From Mytilus trossulus (taxonomy: Eukaryota), in NCBI RefSeq assembly GCF_036588685.1, contig NC_086380.1:21638001-21702000 (forward strand): a stretch of 64,000 nt of DNA, written 5' to 3'. Position 1 is the stretch's first letter, and each line of letters begins with the position of its first letter. Below, one piece after another: positions 6,922 to 52,351 of the stretch. The position numbers were made by a program, and so were the translations under genes. The notes below the pieces were generated by a model. That model made no database searches and was not told the DNA's origin. It worked only from the letters and a program-made list of their open reading frames with translations.

Positions 6922-9454
6922 CTTTCTTCAGTCTGCTGATTCGCATAATAAAGATTGGGAAAATTTTAACATGTTTAACACAATTTTCTTTTTAAAACGT
7001 GAACTTACATAATAATTATATATAGGCCTATAGCTACTAGCTTGAATCAGAATAACATAAGGGTTCAATGGCCATCTTTTTATTAAAAAAAATTAAGTGT
7101 TTCTCGTCATGCTCGTCTCATTTACGTATTTTCCAAATTCTACTATTATTATAATAATAATTGTTTTTATAAATTCTCAATGATGAATAATCTATTCAAC
7201 CATCATGCTAGATATATTTATATAAAAGAAACTCGGTTCAACAATATCATGAATATGTAAGAAAAACAGGAAGTTAAAAAATAGTTTACATTCTTACCTT
7301 TAATTTGTTATGTATGATATTTTAAAAAGTAGCTTAGTACTATTAAACTAGTGAACTAGTTATAACCCACGTGACCTTGTGTTATCACATTTATCGACAT
7401 TTATCACCCATTGATACTATTTAAATAACAAATGATTAAAGTCCCGGTTGAAATCTTTACAAACTGCGATAGGATTAAATCATTTTCTATAATCATTAAT
7501 TTTGTAACTTATAACTAAAATTGAGATTGGAAAGTTAGTATATATATGATATTATTCATTAATTTGAAGTTTATTAATAAATATCGTCTTTTTCACCTGC
7601 AGTATCCTTGAATGATATGTCTAGAACATGTAGACGGACGCAAATTGCTAGTAATAAAACTTCAGATTTAAAAAAAAAAAAAAGTTATTTGAGTATTAAA
7701 AAAGCAGATATATTTTTCTCAGCAAAAATATCCATTAATGTGGCTAATTTTATAAGGATTCGGTGATTCCTTGTTCTGAAAAAAAAACCAAACTAAATTA
7801 TCAAAATTTACATGAATATATAGCAACCGGTGTTAACCATGGCCAATTATATTGATTTTGATTTCAGTTATGGCAAACCTTTTGTTTATGTATTTTGGTA
7901 CACTTTAACTTTTTCAATTTAACATTATCATGGAGTTATTTATCTGAAAATAAAAATCAGTTTATTTTGAGTTCTCGTTCCTATACATCTTGAAAGACGA
8001 GTTGAGTGTGTGTTTTTTTCAGTTCAGTGCGTGTTGCAAAGTTTTCAGTTTACCACGTTTTCCTTGTTTTTGTTTTTTCCCGTAATATTTGCATTTTCTC
8101 TTCGACTTACGATTTTGTATCTCCCCTTTGGTATCTCCTAAGTATGGCACCATCAATGGAGTTGGGATGACATATTGTTATTCTACGTTTCTTTTTTTCT
8201 TCTTCTTATTTTTTCTCCCACTTTTCTTGTCCAGCTTATATTAGTACAACTGTTATCTGTAAGAAATGTCAAAGAGCTAAACAACCTAGGAAAATATTTA
8301 TTTTCTGCAGAAAAAGCACGTAATGGTTAATTATTCAAATGTTTATTTTCAGTTTAATATGTCTATATGTCATACTCCGCTTAATTCTTTCATTGATTTG
8401 TATAATTCGTGTATAAATGTTATATTATGCTGTATATTATCTATTGGATATTTATATTGTGTAAATCCAATAAGCTGTATTTGCTTACGGAAATAAAGTA
8501 TTAATAGAGATTTCCAATAAAATGACTTTACTCGACCTAACCGACCTAACTCAACGTATGTCGTCCTATTGCATTGAAGCATGACGGAGGGGAGCATACA
8601 CTGCATGCATGTTTTACTTTGTTGCTGGAATATGCCTTCAGTAAAATTCAACCCCAACTATTTTTGTTTACTCTTTAAATATTTTGTCATTAAACTTGAA
8701 TGATTTTATTGACATAAATACTATAATGGAACAAGTAAATTAGCAACTTGTAATCAAACACACCCATCATTTCTTGTCATTTCACTTGACCCATATTTTA
8801 GTTCTTCTCACATTATGAATTTTAAAAACTACCAAGACGACATTTAGCATACTAATATTAAAATAACGAATTCCGAAGCGAGAAGGTTGCCTCTTTATTG
8901 TTTTAAAAAGATTTAACGTTTAAAGTAAATTCCAACACACCCGAATGTAAAAGGTGTCCTCGACTTTTAAAACAAAATAATATTTTTCTATAATTTAATT
9001 GAAGATAATTTGATGTGGGCAGAAATTCATATCAATGATATATTTTTCAAAAGTACTTTCTCGTCTTTACCTATACCAATTTAAGGGGCGTGGCTTTTGT
9101 TTAAGTATACATAAACTTGCATCCGAGGATACAGGGGTAGTGGGCGTACTCCCCCTTTTCGATCGCTAAATAAGTTTTAAAATCTCATGTTTTCCACAAT
9201 ATCATTTTAGCGTATAATTGTCCAAATTCTTTTTTGCATCGCTTCGCTCGTCAGTCACCCTCTTTCAAATATCTTGGATCCGGCCATTATCACGAACTGT
9301 ATTGCACGAAAAAAAACGTAAATGATTGTCGTTTGACTTTGATAAATACTTTAAAAAACAACAATGTCTGAAAATTAGGCATCTCGTATGTGATTTAAAA
9401 GTTTAAGACTACGAACTGTATTAGTCTTTTTTCCCGTGATTTAGTATATATAAA

Positions 9455-9960: not shown

Positions 9961-11738
9961 CCGTACTAGGACAATGGTGTAACAGTACGAAATCAAAATT
10001 ATAAACGGGATAATCATTTTTTATTTATTAGTTGTAGTTGTTTTAAAGATAGTGTTCAGTAGCTGTGGATACTATCATTTCGGTAAATGGAGCTTACTAA
10101 TATTTGGAAGTACTAGCTGTTTTTATGCTTCGTTTCAGTCTCACGAGTCAATCCCTATCTATCTGTTTAATTGTGATCATGATCATTTGATAAACATACT
10201 TCTATGATTGGCTATAACTTGGATATTTATAAAAACTATGTATCATAGATATGCATGCGTAAAATAAGTTCTCGACATAAACCGGCTGAAATATAAAACA
10301 AGAATTAAACCTCACGTTATATATATACTTACGACGAAGAAGCCTCAAGCTATATATAATACATGTACTTACGACGAAGATTATGCCTCAAGCTATAGCA
10401 CTTATGATGATGATGATACTGATGTATGTCTTATATCCAGCAACAAATATTACATATATATTGAGGATGATGAAAATTAATTATAATGATAAATACATAT
10501 ACCTTTTTAAACATGCCCGACAATTAAGAGTAGCATTTTCATATGCTAGGTAACAAGAGAGCGTAACCACTATAAAGAAACACTTGTCTTTCTACGAGTA
10601 AACCAATACCTGCTCTTGCTCGTGAATGCATCATGCTTGTTGGAGAAGCCGAAAAATGCAGTCTTAAAGTCATTCGATCAGGGAGTCCAACATAATAATT
10701 GAATTTGTATTCGGGGCTAGCTTGCTACATGTACCAGTCAATTCCATATACAAGTATATAATTATGAATATAAAATGTGTTTTTATTTTCCAGTCGTGTA
10801 ACACCTTCACTGGTGATCCTGTCATTGGATCTGTCGCATAGTTGTCACTTTTATATATATATACCTCCAAAGCGAGACAAAAGTTGAAACTTATTTTTTT
10901 TTGCTAACTCAATCAATATATTCGATAGCTTTAGAATCTACTTCTAATTGAATAAATACGAGTAAAAGAAAATTCCCGTAAAGACTGAAGTGACATTATA
11001 GTTGTCTCAAAAATGTGACAACTATGTAAATTGACATTCTCATCCACTTTTAATTAGAAATACTTGGGGACAGGATATTTTTTAGCAAATTACTATAATA
11101 AGTTGATAGTTTACTATCCACAGTGGTCAATGCAGGTTATCAGTCATCAATTGATAATCAAGTACACCTTCTAAATTACAATCTAACGAATTGGTGTACA
11201 CATTTATTTACACGCATTATTATCAACTACATTTTTCCTTTTATAATGTTCGTTGACTTTCATTTGAAAGAAAAGAATACGTCAACTACTTAAATTTAAA
11301 GAAGTACATGACCTGTAATATATTTTTTTTAATATTCACTTCCCGTTGACGTACATTTTCCCTGTTGAATTTGTTTTTAGCAGATTGTAAATTGAGGAGA
11401 TTAAGTGCAGAGGGAGAGAACGTTTGAAATGATACTTAATAAAGTATGATGCAATCCCAGTTTTCAACTTTAACTGAGACACGTTCTGATTAACATTTTG
11501 AGCTCATTTTTTTCTGAAATTACGACAAAATCTATATAAATTAATACCCACGGAAATTAAATATTGTAAAACATAAAAAATCAAAAAGAAGAATCTATCT
11601 GATAACGACAAACAAAATCAATACAATTAAAATATCAAATAATAGGTTCATTAAATTTTATAATTTTATCTGAAAATCAAAGTCATTGTGAAAACCATGA
11701 AAGACAACTCCAATGAATCGTATGATAGGTAAAGATAT

Positions 11739-11977
11739 ATGTATTTTCCCGCGTTTCGGAGTATAGCGGGAAAATGTTGTCTAAAAGGAACGTTTTTATA
11801 AGAACGGTATATATATTTTTTTTTTGGCGGGTTTTGTTATGTGTAGTTGTACACGTGGATACGTGGACCAATCATTTGGATTGTTTCAATAAGTATTCTT
11901 ATGTTAATGAGGTGAAAGCGGGTTTTAAATGTTCTTGGGTTTGAAAATCATTCTAGCCGCAGACGTTCAACACTAAA
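11739..11977 (+). repeat. split direct repeat A1
   Basis: Matches 15815-16002 except for a ~47-nt segment and T-tract length; ends immediately before the gag ATG. Confidence 0.9.
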
Positions 11978-11978
11978 C

Positions 11979-13949
11979 ATGTCGGAGCCGGCAGAAATAA
12001 ACATGCTCATCGACCGAAAAATTAAAGACGCTATGAGTCAGAACCAGAACGAGATACTGCAGAGCATTGACAGATTAATGTCTAGTCGTTTAGACACGTT
12101 TCAGAGATCCGTCCACGAAACGCAGAGGCAGTTATCAGAAACTCAAATGTCTAAAATCCAGCAGATGAACACTGAGAATTACGTTTTCAAGCGAAAGGGA
12201 AACGAGGAGCAGTTCAAGGTCAACACAAAAATCGCCAACAAGATGAAAGAGGCCAGAAGTATTCTTACAGAATCGCAGGACAACAACGAAAGTACAGAGG
12301 GCGCGATGAGGAACATTTGTGAAGGTTTGGACATTCTTAATCATCGACAAAAATTAATTAAGCTCGCGGATCAGTCCGAGAACGGATGGAGAACAGTTAC
12401 AGAGTATGAAACGCACAACCTTGCAGATGACTCCGAAGACGAAAAACGTATAATACGAGCAGAAAACAAAGCGTCGAGGAAAATGAAGAGCGACAAAAAG
12501 TTTAAGACACGTACAACTCCTTACAGTGCCCCGCAGTCTACTCGATTCAGCTCAGTTAATCAACAGAGTACAGTTAACATTCCTGTGGTGCATCGACCCG
12601 GAAAATGTTATGAGTGTGGTATGTCAGGACATTGGAGGTCAGACCATTATAAACAGGGTTGGCAAACTCAGAAAGAAAAGTCTGATAAGATAAGTACTAG
12701 ATTATTTAGTAATGATTTATCTGTTAATTTTGGTAGAGAAAATGCTATAGTTTCATGTAATTCACCCGTAGGTAAATTAAGAAGTTCAATTGATTATTGG
12801 CGTAATGTTATTTGCGCTAACGAGACAGTTATTGATATCATAGAACATGGATATAAAATACCTTTTCACACAGAGCCAAGTGAGGTATTTTTGAATAATA
12901 ACAAATCGTCTTTAGAAAATTCAGATTTTGTAGAAAATGAGATTTTAAAGTTGATAGAATTAGGATGCATAAAAGAATTTTCATGTAAACCTAAAGTGGT
13001 CAATCCGTTGACGGTAGCTAACAATAAAAACAAATTAAGGTTAGTTTTAGATTGTAGACACATTAACCCACATCTTCATAAATTCAGATTTAAATATGAA
13101 GATGCTAGCGTAGCCAGTCAAATGTTTAAGAAGGGAGATTACTGTTTTACTTACGATTTGAGATCGGCTTACCATCATATAGAGATATTTGAGGCACACA
13201 AGACATATTTAGGTTTTGCTTGGGTCAAAAATCATGAAACAAAATATTATGTCTTTAATGTTTTACCATTTGGTATATCGACTGCTGGTTATATTTTCAC
13301 GAAAGTTGTAAGGTGTATTGTTAAACATTTACGAAATTCAGGTTTGAAGATTATCATGTATTTAGACGATGGCTTAGGCGGGGCTGACGAGATAAGTCAG
13401 GCTCATGAAACTAGCATAGTTGTTCAGAAAGTACTGAAAGCTTCTGGGTTTTTGATAGCAGAAGATAAATGCAATTGGACACCTAGCCAAAATGTGGTAT
13501 GGTTGGGTTTGGTATGGCAATTTGACAAAGGCATGGTTTCAGTCACGGAAAGGCGACTTTCCAAATTGTTAGATACTTTAAATAGAGTTATACACAAAAT
13601 AGGTAAAGGAGAAATACATGTTTCTGCAAGGTTTCTTGCTTCTATAATTGGTCAGATCATATCTATGCAAGGGGCAGTTGGTCCTGTAGTTAGACTACGT
13701 ACACGAAGTATGTATGAATGCATTTTGTATAAAGCAAGCTGGAATGCTAATGTTCTTTTGAACAGTAGATCTCTTGATGAGATAATTTTCTGGAAGGAAA
13801 ATATAGAGAAAATGAATGGCAGAGAATTGCATATTGTTGAGCAATACTCGAGTGTAGTATACACAGATGCCTCGGGCATAGGTTACGGTGGCTATTTGGT
13901 AAAAGCCATAGACGAAGAGATTATGGGTAGTTGGAACGATGGAGAATAA
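11979..13949 (+). CDS. Gag (coiled-coil, zinc knuckle) in frame with reverse transcriptase and the start of RNase H
   Basis: CYECGMSGHWRSDH knuckle; RT motifs KLRLVLDCR, YDLRSAYHHI, VLPFGISTA, MYLDDGL; RNase H VYTDAS; ends at a premature TAA. Confidence 0.9.
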   Translation: MSEPAEINMLIDRKIKDAMSQNQNEILQSIDRLMSSRLDTFQRSVHETQRQLSETQMSKIQQMNTENYVFKRKGNEEQFKVNTKIANKMKEARSILTESQDNNESTEGAMRNICEGLDILNHRQKLIKLADQSENGWRTVTEYETHNLADDSEDEKRIIRAENKASRKMKSDKKFKTRTTPYSAPQSTRFSSVNQQSTVNIPVVHRPGKCYECGMSGHWRSDHYKQGWQTQKEKSDKISTRLFSNDLSVNFGRENAIVSCNSPVGKLRSSIDYWRNVICANETVIDIIEHGYKIPFHTEPSEVFLNNNKSSLENSDFVENEILKLIELGCIKEFSCKPKVVNPLTVANNKNKLRLVLDCRHINPHLHKFRFKYEDASVASQMFKKGDYCFTYDLRSAYHHIEIFEAHKTYLGFAWVKNHETKYYVFNVLPFGISTAGYIFTKVVRCIVKHLRNSGLKIIMYLDDGLGGADEISQAHETSIVVQKVLKASGFLIAEDKCNWTPSQNVVWLGLVWQFDKGMVSVTERRLSKLLDTLNRVIHKIGKGEIHVSARFLASIIGQIISMQGAVGPVVRLRTRSMYECILYKASWNANVLLNSRSLDEIIFWKENIEKMNGRELHIVEQYSSVVYTDASGIGYGGYLVKAIDEEIMGSWNDGE

Positions 13950-14669
13950 TTGAAAAGTTCTACTTGGAGAGAGTTTGAGGCAGTTTATAGAGTACTGCAG
14001 TCTATATCTATGTCATTAAAAGGTCAAACAGTTAAGTGGCACACAGATAATCAAAACGTAGTAAACATAATAAAAAAGGGCAGCAAGAAATCTGATTTAC
14101 AAAATATTACAATTAACATAGCTAATGTATGTAAATTAAACTGCATTAAGATCGTACCAGAGTGGGTACCTAGACAAGAGAACGTTAAAGCAGATAAAAT
14201 TAGTAAGACTATTGATTGTGATGATTGGGAGATAGACGATATTACATTTGAATATTTTAATCAGAATTGGGGTCCACATACCGTAGATAGGTTTGCCACT
14301 GATTACAATGCAAAATGTAGCATATTCAATACCAAACACTGGTGTCCAGGTACACTGGGTATTGATGCCTTTAATAGACATTAGGGTAAAGAAAATAACT
14401 GGATTGTGCCACCACCTTCAGACATATCCCGATGTATACACAAGATTATCCAAGATAAAGCAGATAGCACGTTATTTGTTCCTTTATGGGTTTCAGCACC
14501 ATATTGGCCACTTTTACACAAAGTCAATGGTAATGTTGTAGAATTCGAATCGTTCATTAAAGATAGTAAAATATTACCATCAACAGTTATCAAAAAAGGC
14601 CGAGGTAGAAATGGTATGTTCGGAAAATCCACAGATTTCAGGATGTTGGCTATGAAAATAAGGTTTTAA
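13950..14669 (+). pseudogene. remainder of pol: RNase H plus DIRS-type methyltransferase-like domain, interrupted by TAG at 14382-14384
   Basis: Same frame as 11979. RNase H motifs SSTWRE, WHTDNQ, NVKADKIS; MT-like motifs TVDRFAT, GIDAF, NWIVPPP, APYWPLL. Confidence 0.85.
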
Positions 14670-14711
14670 TTTATTTCATTCTTTCCTACAGGTATCGGTC
14701 TGAAAAGCAGG

Positions 14712-15701
14712 GTGTTGGAGAAAATACAAGATGGAGGGATTCTTTCGGCTGACTTTGACGAATTGGGACATAAGATGTCATCGTATTTACTGCAGTCCAG
14801 AAGTGACAATACTAACAATAAATATTTTTATGCTTATAAACGGTGGGAGAGATTTATATTGAAACAAGGGGGACTATCTTTACCAGCAAAGCCTATACAT
14901 GTAGCCCTATATTTAACCAAACTGATAGACACAGGTTCATCTTATAGTGTAGTTCAGTCAGCTTTTTACGGTATAAAATGGGCACATACTGTTCAAGGTT
15001 TTTCAGATCCCACAGAAAATGCATTTGTGACCAATTTACTGGAGTCTTCTAAACGTCAACCACATAAACCGAAAGTTAAAAAGGAACATATTGATTCTGA
15101 ATCTATTATTGAACTTTGTATAAAATATAAAGACAGTGATGATATAGCTATTTTAAGGGATTTATGTATGATTGTTCTTAGTTTCTCTGGTTTTCTGAGA
15201 TACAACGAGCTTAGTTCTCTTCGATGTAAAGACGTTCATTTCAAAACTAATTATTTAGAGATTGATATTGACAAAAGCAAAACTGATCAGTATAGATTAG
15301 GGGAGAAATTAGTTATTTCAAATGGTGAGTCTGCTGCTTGTCCTTATAGTTTATTGTCCAAATATTTCAGTATTTGTAAAATTGAGTCCAGTTCTGAGCA
15401 ATATTTATTTAAACCTATTTTTAGATCAGGCAAACGGTGTTCGCTAATTTACAAGAACAAAAAACTGAGTTATACCAGAGCTAGAGAGTGTATAGTAGCT
15501 AGACTCAAAGAAGTTTGTGGTGATATAAACATAGGTTTACATTCTTTAAGGGCGGGTGGAGCCACTGTCGCAGCTAACGCTGATGTTAACGAACGCTGCT
15601 GGAAACGGCACGGTCGATGGAAATCTGATACTGCCAAAGATGGGTACGTGGCAGACTCACTTGCACATCGTTTAGAAGTTACTAAGAAGCTAGGTCTTTA
15701 G
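14712..15701 (+). CDS. tyrosine recombinase (YR) of the retrotransposon
   Basis: Catalytic set intact: FSGFLRYNE (R), KSKTDQ (K), HSLRAGGAT (HxxR), HGRWKS, DGYV (Y). The ORF is open from the pol stop at 14669; true start uncertain. Confidence 0.93.
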   Translation: MLEKIQDGGILSADFDELGHKMSSYLLQSRSDNTNNKYFYAYKRWERFILKQGGLSLPAKPIHVALYLTKLIDTGSSYSVVQSAFYGIKWAHTVQGFSDPTENAFVTNLLESSKRQPHKPKVKKEHIDSESIIELCIKYKDSDDIAILRDLCMIVLSFSGFLRYNELSSLRCKDVHFKTNYLEIDIDKSKTDQYRLGEKLVISNGESAACPYSLLSKYFSICKIESSSEQYLFKPIFRSGKRCSLIYKNKKLSYTRARECIVARLKEVCGDINIGLHSLRAGGATVAANADVNERCWKRHGRWKSDTAKDGYVADSLAHRLEVTKKLGL

Positions 15702-15755
15702 CATTTTCATTTTATTGTATATCATTTACGCTTTTCCGCCCTTTCTTTGTGTTTC

Positions 15756-16002
15756 TAGTCTGCACGGCTAAATGCATTGCTTTGTGTTTGTTATTATTGT
15801 AGTGTAGTTAAGACATGTATTTTCCCGCGTTTCGGAGTATAGTATTTTTTGGCGGGTTTTGTTATGTGTAGTTGTACACGTGGATACGTGGACCAATCAT
15901 TTGGATTGTTTCAATAAGTATTCTTATGTTAATGAGGTGAAAGCGGGTTTTAAATGTTCTTGGGTTTGAAAATCATTCTAGCCGCAGACGTTCAACACTA
16001 AA
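15756..16002 (+). repeat. split direct repeats B1 (15756-15814) and A2 (15815-16002); B|A circle-type junction
   Basis: B1 is identical to 16347-16405 and directly abuts the copy of the 5' repeat (GTTAAGAC|ATGTATTTTCCC). Confidence 0.9.
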
Positions 16003-16346
16003 ACTTCAATGTTTCATATTTGATATTGTATATTATTTTGCTGTTTTTTCTTGATGGAGTTTGGCATCAATGTCCCGAGGCGTGCCTTGCACTTGCTCCG
16101 AACACAGGTTTCCAAATCAATTTTCTTTAATAAAGTTTTTTGATGGTTTTTCCTGGGCGGCGAGGTTACGTTAAAGACGGATATATATACATACATACAT
16201 ACATACATAGAGATATGGGCTCTTATTGATACAGAGTAAACTTGTTTCAGATGTTTATTCTTTCTGTGTACCTCCTTTGGAATGTTTTTGTACTTCATAT
16301 ATGTCATGATTTATAATATAAAATATACATTAAACGCCGGCTCTGT

Positions 16347-16405
16347 TAGTCTGCACGGCTAAATGCATTGCTTTGTGTTTGTTATTATTGTAGTGTAGTT
16401 AAGAC
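16347..16405 (+). repeat. split direct repeat B2 (3' terminus of the element)
   Basis: 59-bp exact copy of 15756-15814. Confidence 0.9.
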
Positions 16406-16684
16406 GTATATATACGTGGTCTTATGACAGTGAAGTTTAGGCGGGAATATCAATAATCACGTGATATATAGAAATCATGATTTCTTCCGTTTTTCAGCAT
16501 CTTAGAAATATTTGATATTGATAAAATTTATTATGAATGCGTTTCATTGTTTTAGGAATACTTAGTTAAAACTGGGGTAATGCATTTAACAAAATTAATT
16601 GGTTAGCAATAACCGGTCCCGTTACGTGCGTACGTCGAGTTAGGTACGTATGTCATTTTATTGGAAATCTCTATTATGTCTTAT

Positions 16685-17800
16685 TAGAGATTTCCAATAA
16701 AATGACATACGTACGCACGTAACGGGACCGGTTATTGCTAACCAATTAATTTTGTAAAATGCATTACTTAAGTTTCAACTAAGTATTCATAAACTAGGAA
16801 ACCCATTCATAATAAATTTAATCAATATCAAATATTTCTTAGATGATGAAAAACGAAAGAAATCATGACTTTCATATATCACGTGATTCTTGAGATTCCC
16901 GCCTAAACTTCACTGTCATAAGACCACGTATATATACGTATCTTTACCTATCATACGATTCATTGGAGTTGTCTTTCATGGTTTTGACAATGACTTTGAT
17001 TTTCAGATATAATTGCAAAATTTAATAAACTTATTATTTGATATTTGTATTGATTTTGTGTGTCGTTATCAGATAGATTCTTCTTTTCGATTTTTAATGT
17101 TTTATAATATTTAATTTCTTATTTATCGATCAAAAAGGGGGAGTACGCGCTCTACTTCTGTATCCTCGGATGCAAGTTTAGGTATACTTCAACAAAAACT
17201 TCGCCCCATAATTTGGTATAGTTAAAGTCGAAAAAGTACATTTGAAAAATATATCATTGATATAAATTTCTGCCCACATCAAATTATCTTCAATTAAATT
17301 ATAGAAAAATATTATTTTGTTTTACAAGTCGAGTACACCTTTTACATTCGGGTGTGTTGGAATTTACTTTAAACGTTAAATCTTTTTAAAACAACAAAAA
17401 GGCAAGCTTCTTGCTTCGGAATTCGTTATTTCAATATTTGTATGCTAAATGTCGTCTTGGTAGTTTTTAAAATTCATAATGTGAGAAGAACTAAGATATG
17501 GGTCAAGTGAAATGACAAGAAATGATGGGTGTGTTTGATTACAAGTTGGTAATGTACTTGTTCCATTATAGTATTTATGTTAATAAAATCATTCAAAGTT
17601 TAATGACAAAATATTTAAAGAGTAAAAGAAATAGTTGTGGTTGATTTTTACTGAAGGCATATTCCAGCAACAATGCGTGTTCAAAGAGCAAAACATGCAT
17701 GCAGTGTATACTCCCCTTCGTCATGCTTCAATGCAGTAGGACGAAATACGTTGAGTTAGGTCGGTTATGTCGAGTAAAGTCATTTTATTGGAAATCTCTA
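16685..17800 (-). mobile_element. non-autonomous TIR element, copy 2 (1116 bp), inverted relative to copy 1; possibly Academ-like (TAG...CTA termini, 4-bp TSD)
   Basis: 22-bp TIR TAGAGATTTCCAATAAAATGAC; TTAT on both flanks (16681-16684, 17801-17804). Superfamily assignment is inference. Confidence 0.85.
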
Positions 17801-18851
17801 TTATATCTTAAATTTTATGAACCAATGTTAATGGAACTTAACCATAATGTTAACCACCATGTGCAGATTTACAAAGAAGGGTTGGCATATTCAAGATGGC
17901 TGCCGTTGCCATGGAAACTGGTAAAATGCGGAAAAAAAATTATTTCAAAATGCTCCAATCTTTCTAAAACTTTGCAAAAAAGTTAATTGGCATGTGTAGA
18001 TCCAGTCTGCATATTTTGCATAAAATATGTTTAGATTTCGACGTCATTCAAATCAATCGAGTTCATTTTTTGAGATTATGCAAAATAAGAACGACAATTG
18101 AACAAATATAGTTCACCGGGTTTTTTTTCTTATCCGAGTTTATCCTATTTATTTTCAAATGTTACTTTTTAGAGAAATATATTCTGTTAGTTTTTGAATT
18201 TCTTACAAAAGGGCACAGGGGTTTGAATTTAATATCCATACGTGTAAAATGTTATCTCATATGAATAAAAGCGAATATATTTAAATATTATGACTATTTA
18301 TATTAATTTGATATATTTATACTGAGATAGACAGTTGGACATCGACCGTCTAGCATAGTATTGATATATCCAGTTTGTAAGTAGTAGTTGCATCATAATA
18401 TAATGTATATACATTTTTTTTAATTTAAAAAGGCATGCCTTTAAGCTACAGCTACTTGAAATATTTGTATAGATGAAAAGATAAACGTAGTCTTAAGACT
18501 CAATTAAATATTTGATTAATAAAATAACATAAATGACAGAACTAGAACAAATTTAAAAGGACTTTGATTAAATTGTAATGCAAAAATTATTACTAGGTAT
18601 ATAGTGGATATTGAGATCATGCCAGATTGCCTATAGCAACGAGGATGGGTGGAGTTGGAGGGGGGGGCGGGTGTTCTCGGAGTAGTCCATCTTCAGTCAT
18701 TACTGGTCTGCCAACACTTCTGTTATGATGTCGAACCCGAATCCGGGCAAGATGCTCTCGATTTCGATCTCAGTTAACTAGGATTGCCACTTTTCCTGTT
18801 ATAGGTCGGTTGTTTTCTCATGCTACTGCTCACTCAACAAATTGACCGCTA

Positions 18852-34257: not shown

Positions 34258-34892
34258 GTATGTTGTTTTATAGTAAATTATGATTTGCAGTTTACTTTTA
34301 ACGAAGGTTTGGATGACTTTAGAAAGATCTGGCTTCTATTATTAGGTCATATCGCTTTTTATGTGTTTTGTTTCTTAAACTTTTATGAGTTTGAGGATTT
34401 CATTATGAATAATTATTTTCCTGTTTGGTCAACAGAAACGTACTAGACAGAGAATTATTTTATCGTTTTGAATTGCAAATACAAAGTCAGAATCATTACC
34501 AATTAAACTTGTAAACTCGATTAAGGTTTTACTTATTTTTTTTTTAAATGTTTGATCTGATATTACGAAACATAGAAAACAATCAATATAATCTACTTAA
34601 AAAATGCTCGTTAAAAGTTTTTATAAGTACGACACAATCCTATTATTAACAAAACAAGGATTGAAATACGAAACATACCCAAATAGACAAGCAATAATTA
34701 AGCGAATTTCTAAAACGGAAGATATGAATTAAAAAAAATAGGTTGTTATTAATAGCTGCTTCCTTTGTGACTTAATAGTTTCTCTCGATTAAAAAATATA
34801 TAAAAAATATTGGTGAATATTGTCTACATTGAAAAAAGTTTAGAAACTGACACTTGCAAATTTAGACTTTGTAAATTCGATCTGGGTCTGGT

Positions 34893-35470
34893 TTTTCCAT
34901 TTATCCTTATCAATATTACTAGACCACTAAATCTCAAAACCAAGGAAAGTTTCTCCATTTATCCTTATCAATATTACTCGACCACTAAATCTCAAAACCA
35001 AGGAAAGTTTCTCAATTTATCCTTATCAATATTTCTAGACCACTAAATCTCAAAACAAAGGAAAGTTTCTCCATTTATCCTTATCAATATTACTCGACCA
35101 CTAAATCTCAAAACCAAGGACAGTTTCTCCATTTATCCTTATCAATATTACTCGACCACTAAATCTCAAAACCAAGGAAAGTTTATCCATTTATCCTTAT
35201 CAATATTACTCGACCACTAAATCTCAAAACCAAGGAAAGTTTCTCCATTTATCCTTATCAATATTACTCGACCACTAAATCTCAAAACCAAGTAAAGTTT
35301 CTTCATTTATCCTTATCAATATTACTCGACCACTAAATCTCAAAACCAAGGAATGTTTATCCATTTATCCTTATCAATATTACTCGACCACTAAATCTCA
35401 AAACCAAGGAAAGTTTATCCATTTATCCTTATCAATATTACTCGACCACTAAATCTCAAAACTAAGGAAA
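34893..35470. repeat. 58-bp minisatellite, about 10 copies, in intron 1 of gene A
   Basis: Unit CCATTTATCCTTATCAATATTACTCGACCACTAAATCTCAAAACCAAGGAAAGTTTCT, head-to-tail. Confidence 0.95.
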
Positions 35471-36683
35471 TGTAAGCGGTAATACAGTTTAGGAGGGAAA
35501 TCACTTAAAGGATACTTCTATTCAATAGACAAACAGTTCAAATATTACATTTATATGTTTATTATATTATACATTATAACACAGCTGAAAAGCAGTAACA
35601 AAACAAAAAGCTGTCGGAGTAGAATTTGATTGTCTAATGAATATTGTCATTACTAATAATTATTTTTATTTATTTTTTTAAACAATACTGAATTGAAATA
35701 TTTAAAAAATATGTCTGAACAGTTTAATGAATTGAAAAAAAGGAAAATAATACCATTCATTGACGGAAGGAAATAATAAAAAAATAATAAGATTAGTACA
35801 TAATTTTACTAAATTGATTGACATATGAATCAAAAGAAGTGTTGGATTCAATGTGGTAATTAAAACCGACAACACAAAAATATCATCCACACAGACTTCT
35901 AAATATCAATCATTTATGTTTGTCTTAAGTTGCTGCCCTTTTGATCTTATTTACAAAATTCTGCAAAATTGTTTTAAAAGAAGAGTTAATCAAGTTTGAA
36001 CATCCATGCGATTATGATTCCATTTACGCTAGCAAATGTACAGCACCAATATGTACGCCTATCTCTCATATAGTCGCTAGAAAGAGAAAGAGTCAATATA
36101 TTTGCATTTGTGAAATGACTTTGAAGTGTTTACATAAAAAAGTGAAACTACATTTTGAAAATAGAATAAATTAAACAACTATTTTTGTATGACATTTAGA
36201 CTTAATTTTAATGTTGTAATCGTTTTTTGTATTAAGTAGAACGCTTTGTGAACACTTTTCCTCTCCTACTGTGCGAGATAATTTCAGTTTCCTTAATATA
36301 AATTATTTTCATTATAAATGTCATCTAATAAACAACAAATACATTTAGAAAATAATATTTACGTGACATATATTGCCTTATAGTGAATATTATAGGTTTT
36401 ATATCATATTGTTATAAAGATTATTGTTAAGAAACGTTTTGCCAATTTATAATTGTTAATAAATTATACAAAAACCGATGGAATCTATAGATTAACACTT
36501 CTTTTTATGATGTTACTACATATCGTTATTACAAAAAAAAAATCAGCTTTGTTTGATTATGTAGAGAACAGATCTAAAATATCATAATGGCCTTGAATGA
36601 CATACTTTTCGGAACCACACAAAAAGAATGTTACTGATTGTTTGTTTTACTGACATTCTCTTGTTATGTTTCAGTCTTTCATT

Positions 36684-38813
36684 ATGAATCCAATTCAGAC
36701 CGTTGTCACATTCATTGCTGTCTTCGCCACAGTTAATGGTGCTGGTTATGGAAAAGGTGGCGGTATGGGCGGCGGTATGGGAGGTGGTATGATGGGAGGA
36801 GGAATGGGTGGCGGTATGGGCGGGGGAATGATGGGTGGTGGTATGGGAGGTGGTATGATGGGAGGCGGTATGGGAGGTGGTATGATGGGTGGTGGCATGG
36901 GAGGCGGTATGGGTAAGATGATGGGCGGTGGAATGATGGGAGGTATGGGAGGTGGTATGATGGGCGGTATGGGCGGTGGTATGATGGGTGGTATGGGTAT
37001 GGGTAAGATGATGGGCGGCGGTGGTATGGGCGGAGGAATGGGAGGTGGTATGATGGGAGGTATGATGGGTGGTATGGAGGGCGGTATGGGTGGTATGGGA
37101 GGTGGTATGGGTAAGATGATGATGCCAATGCCAATGCCAATGCCAATGCCAATGCCGATGCCAATGCCAATGCCAATGCCAATGCCAATGCCAATGCCAA
37201 TGCCAAAATCTATGCCAATGCCAATGCCAATGCCAATGCCAAAAATGGGAGGTGGTATGATGGGAGGCATGATGGGAGGTAAGTTGAACTAATATTGTTT
37301 TCTTTCTTTTAACTATTTATGTATTCCATTCAATGTTTTGCATGATGAACTTGGGGAACACACAGCTACCGCTAACATAAAAACAAACACCAAATACACG
37401 TGGCTATATTGATGACTCACAAATATGTCTAGCACGCTCTTGGTGTGAAATTCAAAATTTAAACTGAATTTTATTAATGCCTCAAAATTTAAGCTGAACC
37501 ATTATGTTTTCTCTTCTGAATAAACTGATATCATTAATAAAGAACAAGGTTTGGTCACTTTTATTTATGAACATTCAAATGTAAATTGTGTAATACTATT
37601 GAAATCACCCATAACTATTTGTTACATGTGTATATATAGTACATGAATGTAGTTTGAATTCAAATTCAAACATCGAAAGTTATATATTGATATGTTTCAT
37701 GTTTAAGAAAAAGAAATACACTTATTACTATAATATCATAAAAAACATCTTTATTGTTAATATTATTTATTTACTTGTTATGATATTTGATTTATGTCTC
37801 TTTTTTCATATAGGTATGGGCGGAGGAATGATGGGCGGTATGGGCGGTATGGGCGGAGGAATGATGGGAGGTATGGGCGGAGGAATGGGAGGAGGAATGG
37901 GAGGAGGAATGGGCGGAGGAATGGGCGGTAAAATGGGAGGTGGCAAAAGTAAGTGTTTGTTTATTGTAGCTTTATTTTGTAAGAATGCTCTATATATTTG
38001 CTTACATTCATTTTATTTGAACTTTGGCGAAGTTGTGTCATTGGCAATCATACCACATCTCCTTTTTATGTTGAATGTTTTGATACAAACAAACAAACCT
38101 AAGTATTACATTTATAAATATATTTTTTAATTGCAGGATACAGAAGAGCCACCGGTACGTATAACTCGCCCTCTATTTTTATATTAAAGAATATCATAAT
38201 TTCTTAAATTCTGCAAATTAAAGTACTGTGAATTCATTAATGTTCGTTGGGTACCAATTTTCGGGGATTTTCTCGGTCGAGTGAACTATGGAACTAACAG
38301 TTCAACGAACATCATTTTTTTATACTTTGACAATCCGCGAAACTAAATATCTACAAACATTCAAGTTTCCTTAATCCCAGAAAATTGGTACCCACGAAAA
38401 TAAAAAGAATCCACAGTAATTCAAACGTTCGTTGTCGTGTAATAGTCAGTGCTATTTGAATACTTTGCATCTTAATAAGATTGATTGAGTGATTAAATGA
38501 CTGAAGGGTTTGTTGACTGATTGATTGATTACTAAACGTGACATCTTCACAAATGCATTGTAGCAAATAGTGGACATCACATACATTTTTAGCCTCTCAT
38601 TTAAGAATCGAAATGAAATCATTGTTATATTCTATTAAATCAATTACATTGTACATGAAATTATTTGAAACTTTTATTTTCCTCGATTAACTTTTATCTC
38701 AAAAGTACATATCAAAGGGAAATAACCTGATATACACCTTTCGTTATTTTTTTTGGTCGTCTACTTATGTTGCTTTTTTCTTTCTTTCAGATTCTTATTC
38801 ATACGACTATTGA
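36684..38813 (+). CDS. secreted Gly/Met/Pro-rich structural protein A (256 aa); join(36684..37278,37814..37948,38137..38154,38791..38813)
   Basis: Signal peptide MNPIQTVVTFIAVFATVNG; (GGGM/GGMM)n; (MP)14-KS-(MP)5; phase-1 exons join to 771 nt ending GGKRYRRATDSYSYDY*; AATAAA at 38866. Confidence 0.88.
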
Positions 38814-47098: not shown

Positions 47099-48848
47099 GT
47101 AGGTTGTTTTAATAGAAATTTACTATTTGGTGATTTCACAATTTAACTAAGGTTTTGCCTCCATCAGATATTAATGACCCTAGATTGCTTGAGTTATTAT
47201 TTTAAAGTTATATGATTTTCCCCGATATTCATTTTTCATACATTTGTAGGTTTTAAATATCTAACTTTGAGTGTCCTAAATAAAGATTATTCCATAATAG
47301 CGCATCCGGCCAATACAATCTATAAAGTGGTCTTTTCATTTGTTTTCCATTCAGTATATGTTTATTAAATCAATAATCGAGGCTGCCAATTATTTCATTT
47401 CAAATTACATAAAACCTAATTTCATTAACTGCATAATTATTTTGAACACGGACATCTTTTTAGCTGCCACAAAAACCAAACAATATCTTTTTCAACTTAT
47501 ACTATACATTAATAGTAGTGAACAGTCTGGTAGATGCCATATTCAAAAACTATATTTAGTAGTATCTTTCTAAACACCAATATTTAATTTTCGTTTTCCT
47601 GAACAGAATTTACAAGGAAAATATAGAACCTTTATTCGATATATTTTAAATAAAAATATGAGGTCTGAATTACCACACATTTAACTTGGAAAATTCAATA
47701 ACTAGGCATTTTTCCTTGTTTTTATGAATTATGATCTGATTTTGCATACTAAGAATATGTTTAATATGCATCAAACTTTACTTCAACGTTAAGATGATAA
47801 AACCTCTGTTGAAAACATACATTTTATAACGAAAGGAAATAAGGCTGTTCATAACTTGATTAATATCTTTTTAACATATTTACAATAACCATTACATATT
47901 AGAAATGCAAATTACTTTCTTGAATCTGTTGTTACTATTCTAATGTAGGTTTAAAAAACATCAATTAAAACCAAAACATTATCATTAATTGTCTCTTCTA
48001 TATTTTACATATATTTATAGACATTCATATATCGCTACAATAAAAATGAATGTTGAACGTTATATATATGATTCGTCTGAAAACGTTATGAGGATAAACC
48101 AGGAGTGCTCAAACCAAACAAAGAAGTATTAAAAAGCAAGGAGGTTTAAGTATTTGAAGACATAAAAGTATATCACTAAATGTAGCTGAACTGTATCCTG
48201 TTATCTTTGGTTGTTGAATAGCAGTACAATATTAGAATAATTTATTGCAAACATTTTGAGACACATAGTAATGTGTAGATATATTCCATATTTTCGACAA
48301 AACCCATCTTCTGATATCATATTTCAAAATTCTTACTTTTTTCTTCTTACATAATTGTGGTTTTTTTTTCATTAAAAATCTATGCACATTTTAGAATTTT
48401 TGCATGACTTGTAGCTTGAAATATAACATGGTTACCCATAGAGATTTTATTAATAAGAATTATACATAAAAACAAAATTGGTTGGTCTTATCATTTATTT
48501 TTATTCTATCATGTCTATAGATCACTAAAATATATTTCATGAATATTCTTATTGCCTAAAACTGTTTCAATAATAATAGATACAAGGAATGAGTTTAAAT
48601 TCCCTTTTTTGTTTCTTGCCTCTTGCGCAAAAATTAATCAGTGTTAATATATTACACATGTTACACGATGTCAGGAAAGCAAAACACTATCTTCTATAGT
48701 TTAATATCTTTTGACTTACACATAAACAGTTCACAAATCTAATAAAATTATTTTCAATATTATCAGACAATCAATAAAAAACAAATGAATTGCAAATATT
48801 TGTTTCTTTTACTAACAATCATTTCGTCTTTTATTTCAGTCTTTCATA

Positions 48849-50064
48849 ATGAATCCAATTCAGATCGTTATCACATTTATGGCTGTCTTCGTCACAGTTA
48901 ATGGTTTTCCCTACGGTGGCGGTATGGGCGGCGGTATGATGGGTGGTGGTATGATGGGTGGTGGTATGATGGGTGGTATGGGTATGGGTAAGATGATGGG
49001 CGGTGGAATGGGAGGTGGAATGGCCGGTGGTATGGGCGGTGGAATGGGAGGTGGAATGGGCGGTGGAAAAGGTATGCAGATGGAAATGGAAGCCGCTCCG
49101 GGTGGAATGGGAGGCGGTATGGGTGGAATGGGTATGGAGGTTGAAATGAAACCCGCTCCAGCTGCTGGTAACAAGATGGGCGGTGGAATGGGCGGTATGG
49201 GTGGTGGTATGGGAGGCGGTATGGGAGGAATGGGTATGGAGGTTGAAATGAAACCTGCTCCAGCTGCTGGAAGCAAGATGGGCGGTGGAATGGGCGGCGG
49301 TATGGGAGGTGGTATGGGAGGAATGGGCGGTGGAATGGGTATGGAGGTTGAAATGAAACCCGCTCCAGCTGCTGGTAACAAGATGGGCGGTGGAATGGGA
49401 GGCGGTATGGGAGGTGGTATGGGAGGAATGGGCGGTGGAATGGGTATGGAGGTTGAAATGAAACCCGCTCCAGCTGCTGGTAACAAGATGGGCGGTGGAA
49501 TGGGCGGTGGAATGAGCGGTGGAATGGGTCAGATGATGATGATGCCGATGCCAATGCAAATGGCAATGCCACAACAAATGCCAATGCCAATGTCAATGAT
49601 GGGAGGTAATCAGAATTATTTTCTAAATTTAAATTACATTTTTCTTTTGTTTGTTTGCTGTACGGTCAAGAAACACAAAAGTCACCCTATTGTATAATCC
49701 ATTCATCGCTCGGAGATAATACAAATATATGTTAAGCATGATACCTCATACAAAAATAATTCACTTGTCATTTAAAATTAGTAAATTAAAAACGATCAAA
49801 TACGAATTGAATAAAAAAAAAACCAATGTAAATCGTGTCGAAAGTTTGTCATTACCTGTAATATATATCATGTCGTAAGTTTGACATTAAATGTAATATA
49901 TTTGAAAAAAAAATTAAATATATATTTCATGTTGAAGTTAAGGAAAGTAAAAACGTAAGATACCTACATAAACAAATCCACTTTGTATTGTGTTGAATAT
50001 TAATGTAAATCATTTTTTTATTTTAATTTGGTGGATATTGATAATCATAACACATCTCCTTATT

Positions 50065-50100
<36 letters not shown>

Positions 50101-52351
50101 GTTTATAACTATGTAAAGTGTTAATGGTATTATTTATTATTTTCCCTGTCATATAGGTATGGGCGGTGGAATGGGCGGAGGAATGGGAGGAATGGGCGGA
50201 GGTATGGGTAAGATGATGATGCCTATGCAAATGCAAATGCCAATGTCAATGCCAGAACCTATGCCAATGCCAATGCCAAATATGGAAATTGAAATGCCAA
50301 TGCCAAAGATGGGAGGTGGAATGGGCGGTGGTATGATGGGCGCCGGCATGGGTGGTGGTATGATGGGCGCTGGAATGGGCGCAGGAATGGGCGCTGGAAT
50401 GGAAATGGAAGGCGGTATGGGTGGAATGGGAGGAGGTATGGGCGGTGGAATGGGAGGTGGTATGGGAGGAATGGGCGCAGCTATGGCTAAAATGATGATG
50501 ATGCCACAACCTATGCCAATGCAAAAGCCAATGCCAAAAATGGAAATTGAAATGCCACCAGGAATGTCAAAAATGATGGGAGCTAAAATGATGGCTGCCA
50601 TGATGGGAGGTAAATACAATTGATTTTATTTTTTTCTCCTACTTTTCAATTAATTATTGCGCAAGCCGTATAGGAGAAAACACTAAATTCACCTTTTTGT
50701 ATCATCCATTCATTGATGTGACATAATATATATGTTTAAAGTATATACCTTTCACAAAAGATACAAAAACAGATTCATGCCGGTATATGAAGAACCTACA
50801 AATTAATACGAATATGAATACGAAAAAGAGTTACACAAAAATAAAAGTCATATTACTCTACTGTACATTTTATGATAATAAAATACATGTATATATTTAG
50901 ACACGAATATAAGCTAAGATAAAATTCATATATTTTAACGTTATACATGCATAAAAGTAAGATAAACATTATCATATTGACAAATGAAACGTTTATATTG
51001 TACAAATTATTTATCTACTTTTATTGATTATGTTGATGTGTATATGATGTTCAATATAAGTCTTGTTTATACATAGGTATGAGCGGCGGAATGGGCGGAG
51101 GAATGGGAGGAGCAATGGGCGGAGCAATGGGAGGAATGGGCGGAGGAATGGGAGGAGGAATGGCCGGTGGAATGGGAGGAATGGGCGGAGGAATGGGAGG
51201 AGGAATGGGAGGAGCAATGGGAGGAGCAATGGGAGGAATGGGAATGGGAGGCAAAAGTAAGTCATAGTTCAATCAAGATTTAATAAGGGAATACATGCCT
51301 TTTTTTCAGAGTATAAAGGATTTTATGATATGTTGATGAGTGACATGGTTCGGTTAAAAAAAAACAAATAATATCCGTTATAAAGTCGTTTGACCCTTTA
51401 TTTTGTTTGTGTCACTGAATTGGCATGGCTCATTTATATATTTTTTGGTTTTTGGTTCAAATAAATGTTTTGTGCCTACGTTTTATTTAACAATTTACGC
51501 GAAGTGAAACTAAATATGTGAAACGTCGAACCAGTGTGTTTAATTATCATAACTATCTTGTTTACGTTGTTAAGGAAAACTAATTCCGTCAACGTCGTCA
51601 ACTAATTAATGACTTCCAGATCCTCTACAAAATACCCTTTCAATCAATTATATTGACTTATTCTCTGATATGCAAATCATATCAGAATATTTTTTGTTAA
51701 TAATAAAGAACTATGGAATTGCTTATATCAACATTATTTGAACTGTTGTTGATGGTTACCTATTTGGCATTTATACAAAGTCTTTTTTATAATTTAAAAT
51801 AGAATGTGTTAATATTTATAATTCTTGTATCAGAATAAAAGTCAATAAATTGATAAACATGTATTATTTTTAAATTGCAGGATATAGAAGAGCTACTGGT
51901 ATGTAGAACCATCATTTACATTTATTTAGCAGGCTATAATTATTTCTTAAAAGGGCATTACACGATTTTGTTTCAGATTCAAGTTTTATTATCCTCAGAC
52001 ACTAGCATTGTACAAATGGTCAATATACATACATCAATACATAAATGAATAAATGATCTATACCTGTATACAGTAACTACAATATAATGAAATAAACATA
52101 AGAGGTACGACAATAGAAGCTAACACACTTTTAACAAACACGTGGTAGTGGTAGTCAAATCAAATATCTTGTCAAAGATTTTTGTAAAATAAACAAGCCA
52201 AATCTATTTTAGTCGAAGAGTTGTGTACCCCTTAGTAAGAAAAAGGATACATATACTAAAGTAGAAAAAAAGTGGAAATAAATTTAATATTTGATGTTTA
52301 CTTATGTGGACCTTTTCTTTTCTTTCAGATTCTTATTCATATGATTATTGA
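48849..52351 (+). CDS. secreted Gly/Met/Pro-rich structural protein B (476 aa); join(48849..49605,50157..50609,51077..51256,51881..51898,52329..52351)
   Basis: Signal peptide MNPIQIVITFMAVFVTVNG; GGM repeats; 4 x GMEVEMKPAPAAG(N/S)K; MP tracts; joins to 1431 nt ending GGKRYRRATDSYSYDY*; AATAAA at 52404. Confidence 0.88.

What the first reader, a model, noticed from the sequence alone, without database searches (positions are those of the whole stretch)
11979..15701. gag, pol and YR all lie in one reading frame, with a strong splice acceptor just before YR: possible spliced Gag-YR fusion
Seen: gag runs into RT with no stop or frameshift, and YR continues in the same frame directly after the pol TAA (14667-14669). 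TTATTTCATTCTTTCCTACAG|G at 14691 is a canonical phase-1 acceptor. Phase-1 donors follow the zinc knuckle (TAG|GTAAAT after 12771; weaker ones after 12657 and 12732). Established: many DIRS-group elements use separate or overlapping frames. Inference: pol may be removed as an intron to give Gag-YR, with unspliced RNA giving Gag-Pol; stop read-through is an alternative.
Basis: partly seen in the sequence, partly recalled or inferred. Interest (0 to 1): 0.7.

Follow-up and report, generated by a model that had tools for sequence, protein, structure and literature searches.

The report
Retrotransposon splices at a G-less donor
In a mussel jumping gene, sequencing contigs and two related genomic copies lack exactly the reverse-transcriptase gene, likely removed as an intron that begins with AT or TT instead of the near-universal GT; this would release the structural protein Gag alone, while a second, ordinary splice signal in mid-gag likely attaches the DNA-inserting recombinase to the front half of Gag.

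Summary
PAT-like tyrosine-recombinase (YR) retrotransposon of a Mytilus mussel. The acceptor at 14691 is real and conserved (11 of 11 families tested). Two genomic copies of other families lack exactly the homologous AT..AG or TT..AG stretch. The donor, AAG|[AT]TAAGTA, has no G at +1 in 84 of 84 motifs. It is phase 0, so the product is Gag plus an immediate stop, not Gag-YR. YR is nonetheless coding from the acceptor onward. A canonical phase-1 donor in mid-gag (12324|12325) is kept in 11 of 11 families, and two ENA records of relatives hold that exact Gag-N::YR join; it was not seen in this family's contigs (0 of 8). Likely three products from one RNA: Gag-Pol, Gag, Gag-N::YR. Not found in print (six searches). 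This scan noted the same two-donor plan in another genome (e1-8792463, which gave me the mid-gag lead); the contig evidence here is additional.

The parts
11739..11978 (+). Split direct repeat A1 (5' end of the element)
11979..12689 (+). gag exon, 237 codons, up to the G-less donor
   Evidence: (contigs 11949-12689 in X4 and X7)
12322..12332 (+). Canonical phase-1 donor in mid-gag (AAG|GTTTGG, cut 12324|12325), predicted to give Gag-N(115 aa)::YR, 451 aa
   Evidence: GAA GGT in 11 of 11 families; natural joins in relatives; not seen in this family's contigs
12606..12647 (+). Gag zinc knuckle (last ligand His in this family)
   Evidence: (zf-CCHC E=0.06, weak); E=4e-5 in relative L016
12687..12696 (+). 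Non-canonical phase-0 donor AAG|ATAAGTA (cut 12689|12690); its +5 GT (12694-95) is phase 1
12690..14691 (+). 2002-nt AT..AG intron that holds all of pol
   Evidence: joint 12687->14690 with 2 shared letters
13074..13511 (+). Reverse transcriptase core (RVT_1)
   Evidence: E=1.9e-17
13854..14207 (+). RNase H-like domain; premature stop at 13947-13949 in this copy
14214..14468 (+). Dam-like methyltransferase domain; premature stop at 14382-14384 in this copy
   Evidence: (PF05869 E=5.8e-7, above the curated cut-off in sibling L001)
14666..14691 (+). pol stop (14667-69), branch-point-like TTAAT, pyrimidine tract and acceptor CAG
14692..14703 (+). Three codons and a stop that end Gag on the AT-spliced RNA
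   Evidence: stop within 4 codons in 11 of 11 families; background 0.28 per site
14692..15701 (+). Tyrosine recombinase exon; 27 conserved codons precede the first Met (14775)
   Evidence: (PF00589 E=4.2e-6)
15756..15820 (+). Repeat B1
15815..16002 (+). Repeat A2 (about 50 nt shorter than A1 in this copy)
16347..16411 (+). Repeat B2 (3' end of the element, about 16405)

Best explanation
This PAT-like retrotransposon likely makes three proteins from one RNA using one acceptor (14691) and two donors: unspliced RNA would give Gag-Pol, the join at a G-less AT donor (12689^14692, present in contigs) would give Gag alone, and a canonical mid-gag donor (12324) likely gives a Gag-N::recombinase fusion. 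Shown: the 12689^14692 join exists; the homologous joins exist in two genomic copies; both donors and the acceptor are conserved across families; the mid-gag join exists in records of relatives. Inferred: that the spliceosome makes the joins, that the proteins are made, that the mid-gag donor is used in this family, and that the missing G keeps splicing partial so that full-length genomic RNA survives.
For: Joint 12687->14690 (2 shared letters, equal to 12689^14692) in X4 (depth 23.7 against 37 unspliced), X7 (9 against 30.1) and X14: 3 of 7 RNA-guess runs, three studies. X15, of unknown kind, reads through both sites. L012 and L013 lack exactly the AT..AG and TT..AG stretch of their families, with a stop one codon later; the other internal deletions listed fall at unrelated places. 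Motif count: 84 of 121 knuckles carry it in frame; +1 is A in 65, T in 19, G in 0; AAG in 78 of 84 (AAG is 245 of 705 other Lys codons); +7 A in 84 of 84. Gag-frame stop within 4 codons of the acceptor in 11 of 11 families. Acceptor-to-Met segment: no stops in the YR frame in 11 of 11; identity by codon position 0.50/0.54/0.33 and 0.48/0.59/0.22. Mid-gag GAA GGT in 11 of 11 families against 2 of 11 other Glu-Gly pairs. Gag-N::YR joins at that Gly in 4 of 195 Gag hits: P0290 (ENA, 735-nt contig, too short to hold pol), P0160 (ENA), and gene models P0246 (Pinctada) and P0330, whose cluster mate P0338 (Ptychodera, 460 aa) is the full fusion. In human cells TT and AT are the best-used non-GT/GC donors (PMC6280755, abstract and passages).
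Against: No raw reads. All 8 runs are contigs and RNA status is a guess, so the joint could come from spliced copies present as DNA. 4 of 7 RNA-guess runs lack it. The 12324 join was seen in 0 of 8 runs and 0 of 160 fetched loci. Its U1 match is modest (6 of 11). Families share ancestry, so the counts are not independent. 8 decayed clade-A knuckles without the motif were not inspected. No protein-level evidence.
Confidence: 0.72

Rival explanations
1. YR is fused to full-length Gag through a phase-1 GT after the zinc knuckle: the reader's 12771, or the +5 GT of the G-less motif at 12693|12694.
For: Both are phase 1; 12771 has 7 of 11 U1 matches and its GT is kept in 10 of 14 families; the +5 GT is in all 84 motifs; gene models P0159 and P0203 use these sites; AT donors can shift to +5 in reporters (PMC6280755 passages). 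A 4-nt variant could be collapsed by the assembler (inference).
Against: Not seen in 8 runs or 160 loci; absent in 4 of 14 families; among 195 Gag hits only gene models show it; the same paper saw no +5 use for TT donors.
Confidence: 0.13
2. YR starts at Met 14775, by re-initiation after the Gag stop on the AT-spliced RNA or from its own promoter.
For: 8 of 11 representatives have their first Met at this position; the AT-spliced RNA places YR 71 nt after the Gag stop; many database models start there.
Against: The 27-28 codons before the Met are under coding constraint in the YR frame; one family has no Met for 63 codons; natural Gag-N::YR joins exist.
Confidence: 0.08
3. The joins are not spliceosomal at a G-less site: they are DNA or template-switch deletions between two AG pairs, or a rare G allele or A-to-I editing supplies a normal GT.
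For: Two letters are shared at the joint; internal deletions are common in these elements; no matched DNA run.
Against: The same two sites are hit in three families; the site is a U1-complementary motif paired with a pyrimidine-tract acceptor; no G allele in 84 motifs; TT sites (19 of 84, used in L013) cannot become GT by A-to-I editing.
Confidence: 0.06
4. YR is reached by read-through of the pol stop (Gag-Pol-YR).
For: Same frame in this family.
Against: Frame offset is 0 in only 4 of 11 families; in L008 the pol stop lies 103 nt upstream and the YR open frame begins after a further stop.
Confidence: 0.01

Closest known systems
PAT-like (Pat1-type) tyrosine-recombinase retrotransposons, order DIRS (PMC4157794 section 7 read; PMC3266345, PMC9210276, PMC6681497 passages)
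   Same: gag with zinc knuckle, RT, RNase H, MT, same-strand YR, split direct repeats A1-B1-A2-B2.
   Different: One fused gag-pol frame, no pol/YR overlap, and splice-based expression with a G-less donor; term searches in those four papers showed no splicing of the elements' own genes.
Drosophila copia and plant Ty1/Copia spliced Gag RNAs (PMC5580714, abstract and passages)
   Same: Single gag-pol frame; splicing removes pol sequence and creates a stop just after the junction, giving excess Gag.
   Different: Here the donor is AT or TT, the acceptor is shared with a second donor, and the integrating enzyme is a YR likely made as a spliced Gag-N fusion.
Human non-canonical TT and AT 5' splice sites, e.g. 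FANCC c.165+1G>T, FBXO9, ETV1 (PMC6280755 passages)
   Same: Same ..G|TTAAGT pattern with a second GT at +5/+6.
   Different: There mostly weakly used junctions; here fixed across about 14 diverged families and apparently a main isoform.

Membership tests
PAT-like YR retrotransposon | RT, RNase H and YR domains on one strand | tested here: met
PAT-like YR retrotransposon | Methyltransferase domain after RNase H | tested here: met
   PF05869 29.8 bits, cut-off 28.1, in sibling L001; weak in the broken window copy
PAT-like YR retrotransposon | Split direct repeats A1-B1-A2-B2 | tested here: met
   internal repeats lie after YR
Pat1-type subgroup | Zinc finger in Gag, YR not inverted | tested here: met
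PAT-like YR retrotransposon | RT phylogeny with named PAT references | not tested
   no reference sequences were fetched
Ngaro-like | No MT domain | tested here: not met
   MT present; definition
DIRS1-like | Inverted terminal repeats with internal complementary region | tested here: not met
   element ends are direct repeats; the inverted repeats lie in the flanking host repeat
U2-type intron with non-canonical donor | U1-complementary 5' site, pyrimidine tract, YAG acceptor | tested here: met
   8 of 11 U1 matches (U1 motif recalled)
U2-type intron with non-canonical donor | Removal by the spliceosome from RNA | tested here: inconclusive
   exact join in contigs and genomic copies; no raw reads or matched DNA
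U12-type AT-AC/AT-AG intron | ATATCCT 5' motif (recalled) | tested here: not met
   5' site reads ATAAGT or TTAAGT

The most novel reading that the evidence does not exclude
A whole lineage of animal YR retrotransposons uses a G-less (AT/TT) U2 donor as a fixed, selected throttle: it makes Gag as a main spliced product while sparing genomic RNA, and shares one acceptor with a mid-gag donor that makes a Gag-N::recombinase fusion. This would be a natural, conserved, high-use AT-AG/TT-AG intron system and would explain how start-less DIRS-order recombinases are expressed.
Probability: 0.6. Interest if true: 0.8.

Novelty: new variant of a known kind. Interest (0 to 1): 0.68.

Why it matters
How DIRS-order elements balance Gag, Pol and recombinase is open in the papers I could read. 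This gives exact, testable junctions. It also offers a natural series of non-GT donors, kept across about 14 families and used at apparently high rate, for studying how the spliceosome tolerates A or T at +1. Gene predictors that demand GT miss the Gag junction and pick varied donors for this acceptor. Pol-less copies show that spliced RNA can be copied back into the genome.

Tried and rejected
No run was on record as RNA: 'no RNA holder listed'; no raw reads were offered. Contigs without a joint (X1, X6, X8, X9) say nothing on absence. A -1 ribosome slip at the AT junction was rejected for this family: the YR frame has stops directly before the junction and no slippery run (sequence). No spliced copy of the window's own family among 21 and 40 scored candidates. 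No Gag-N::YR genomic copy in 160 loci, including 40 picked from gag hits. P0145 diverges near the mid-gag Gly but returns to gag, so it was not counted. P0156 uses that donor to another gag site and is a gene model. Short Gag models ending in Lys-Ala (P0229, P0276) fit the G-less product but were not checked against DNA. My pyrimidine-tract score is a heuristic; the conserved site was not always its top hit. Look-up of earlier findings by sequence found nothing. No structure prediction was run.

Full report
Observation. The coordinates hold. Six close siblings were fetched; L001 has an open 917-codon gag-pol frame, a stop and a 343-codon YR frame in the same phase. Gag and YR are open in the window copy. 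Named homologues at 97-100% identity are from Mytilus.

What the element is. Pfam finds RT, RNase H, Dam-like MT and phage-integrase YR. The ends are split direct repeats A1...B1-A2-B2. By the definitions in PMC4157794 section 7 this is PAT-like, Pat1-type. MT excludes Ngaro; direct repeats exclude DIRS1-like. No RT tree was made.

Comparison set. A YR search gave 128 scored matches of 1197 candidates. I fetched 160 loci in all. The first 100 plus the window fell into 30 DNA clusters and two groups: clade A with fused gag-pol, like the window (about 14 families), and clade B with separate gag and pol frames. Most tests used 11 clade-A representatives, one per family.

Acceptor. It lies 84 or 87 nt before the YR anchor, in phase 1, in 11 of 11. 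In 54 of the 120 listed YR homologues that extend far enough, the residues at the site show the same YAG|G signature. The pol/YR frame offset is 0, 1, 2 in 4, 4, 3 families, so the shared frame and read-through are not the mechanism.

The donor that is used. Contigs of runs X4, X7 and X14 hold a joint from 12687 to 14690 with two shared letters, equal to 12689^14692 with AT..AG ends. In X4 and X7 the contigs break at 12689 and 14690; depths are 23.7 against 37 and 9 against 30.1. X1, X6, X8 and X9 show no joint; X15 (kind unknown) reads through both sites. RNA status is a guess and these are contigs, not reads. No joint at 12771, 12732, 12657, 12693 or 12324 was listed. Independently, L012 (family of L027) and L013 (family of L016) lack exactly the stretch from AAG|ATAAGT or AAG|TTAAGT to the acceptor.

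The motif is selected. 84 of 121 knuckles are followed in frame by it: +1 A in 65, T in 19, G in none, although the pattern allowed any base (one locus counts twice). Ile and Leu interchange by the first base only, while Val, which would make a GT donor, never occurs. Of the 37 without, 2 are the spliced copies, 27 are clade B and 8 are decayed copies that I did not inspect. The donor is phase 0 and the acceptor phase 1, so the product is Gag with a stop within four codons in 11 of 11 families, against a background of 0.28 per site. This matches the copia strategy (PMC5580714, abstract and passages). TT and AT rank next after GC among human non-canonical donors, and accurate TT use needed a second GT at +5/+6 (PMC6280755, abstract and passages).

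How YR is made. The 27-28 codons between acceptor and Met are free of stops only in the YR frame and vary most at third positions; one family has no Met for 63 codons. YR therefore needs an upstream phase-1 partner. After an earlier scan note (e1-8792463) I looked inside gag. A phase-1 AAG|GT site at a conserved Glu-Gly was present in 13 of 13 sequences covering it, coded GAA GGT in 11 of 11 families against 2 of 11 other Glu-Gly pairs; in the window it is 12324|12325. Of 195 Gag hits, 4 join this Gly directly to the YR N-terminus. P0290 lies on a 735-nt ENA contig, too short to hold pol, and P0160 on a 3778-nt ENA contig; ENA calls appear intron-unaware because others start inside the pyrimidine tract (inference). 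P0246 and P0330/P0338 are gene models from a pearl oyster and an acorn worm.

Mechanism. Unspliced RNA would serve as genome and Gag-Pol message; the G-less splice would give a 240-aa Gag; the mid-gag splice would give a 451-aa Gag-N::YR. Weak donors would keep splicing partial. The joins and the conservation are shown; translation and the throttle role are inferred.

Clade B. Nine of 14 representatives carry AT- or TT-type motifs after the gag stop, in phase 1 of pol, and five carry a weak GT in phase 0. Acceptor phase matches in ten; L081, L085, L100 and L096 do not match at the best AG. CCC TTT C[GC] stands in the gag frame in 11 of 13, resembling a +1 slip motif (recalled, not tested).

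Novelty. Searches (listings) and term look-ups in PMC6681497, PMC7192593, PMC4157794, PMC9210276 and PMC3266345 (passages) showed no splicing-based expression or non-GT donor in DIRS-order elements. Subscription papers, Repbase reports and supplements were not seen and may bear on this. The scan noted the same plan in another genome and related plans elsewhere; these are unchecked notes, not support. Verdict: new variant of a known kind, interest 0.68.

Noticed in passing
L065-L100 (clade B), about 130-180 nt before the gag stop: CCC TTT C[GC] in the gag frame in 11 of 13 representatives and in 0 of 11 clade-A ones; a candidate +1 ribosome slip from gag into pol.
   Followed up: partly
L081, L085, L100, L096, before YR: AT/TT donor motif is phase 1 but the best AG acceptor is phase 0; L085 and L100 have an AC in phase 1 a few bases upstream, which would fit an AT-AC intron as in note e1-9103881.
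   Followed up: partly
window 11553-11744 and 16404-17118, also 8491-9188 / 17104-17814: The element sits inside a palindromic host repeat; contigs in X4 and X7 join 11736 to 16404, the empty form of the site.
   Followed up: partly
G000, nine hits to window about 15837-16405: Stand-alone A2-spacer-B2 units, like solo LTRs, 88-98% identical.
   Followed up: no
window 15815-16002: A2 lacks about 50 nt present in A1 and in siblings' A2.
   Followed up: no
window 12606-12647; L008 and L022 families: Zinc knuckle ends in His instead of Cys in three related families.
   Followed up: no
P0069, P0125, P0126, P0128 (family of L027): Four RefSeq models join a site inside RT to the conserved YR acceptor; RNA support unknown.
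   Followed up: no
P0178, P0191, P0229, P0276: Sea-urchin relatives keep Lys-Leu-Ser after the knuckle, and two scallop Gag models end in Lys-Ala, as the G-less splice would give.
   Followed up: partly
window 36582-37940 and 48816-51251: Gly/Met-rich tandem-repeat open frames on the + strand, possibly exons of a structural matrix protein.
   Followed up: no
window 34891-35470: Ten copies of a 58-nt tandem repeat, 95% matches.
   Followed up: no
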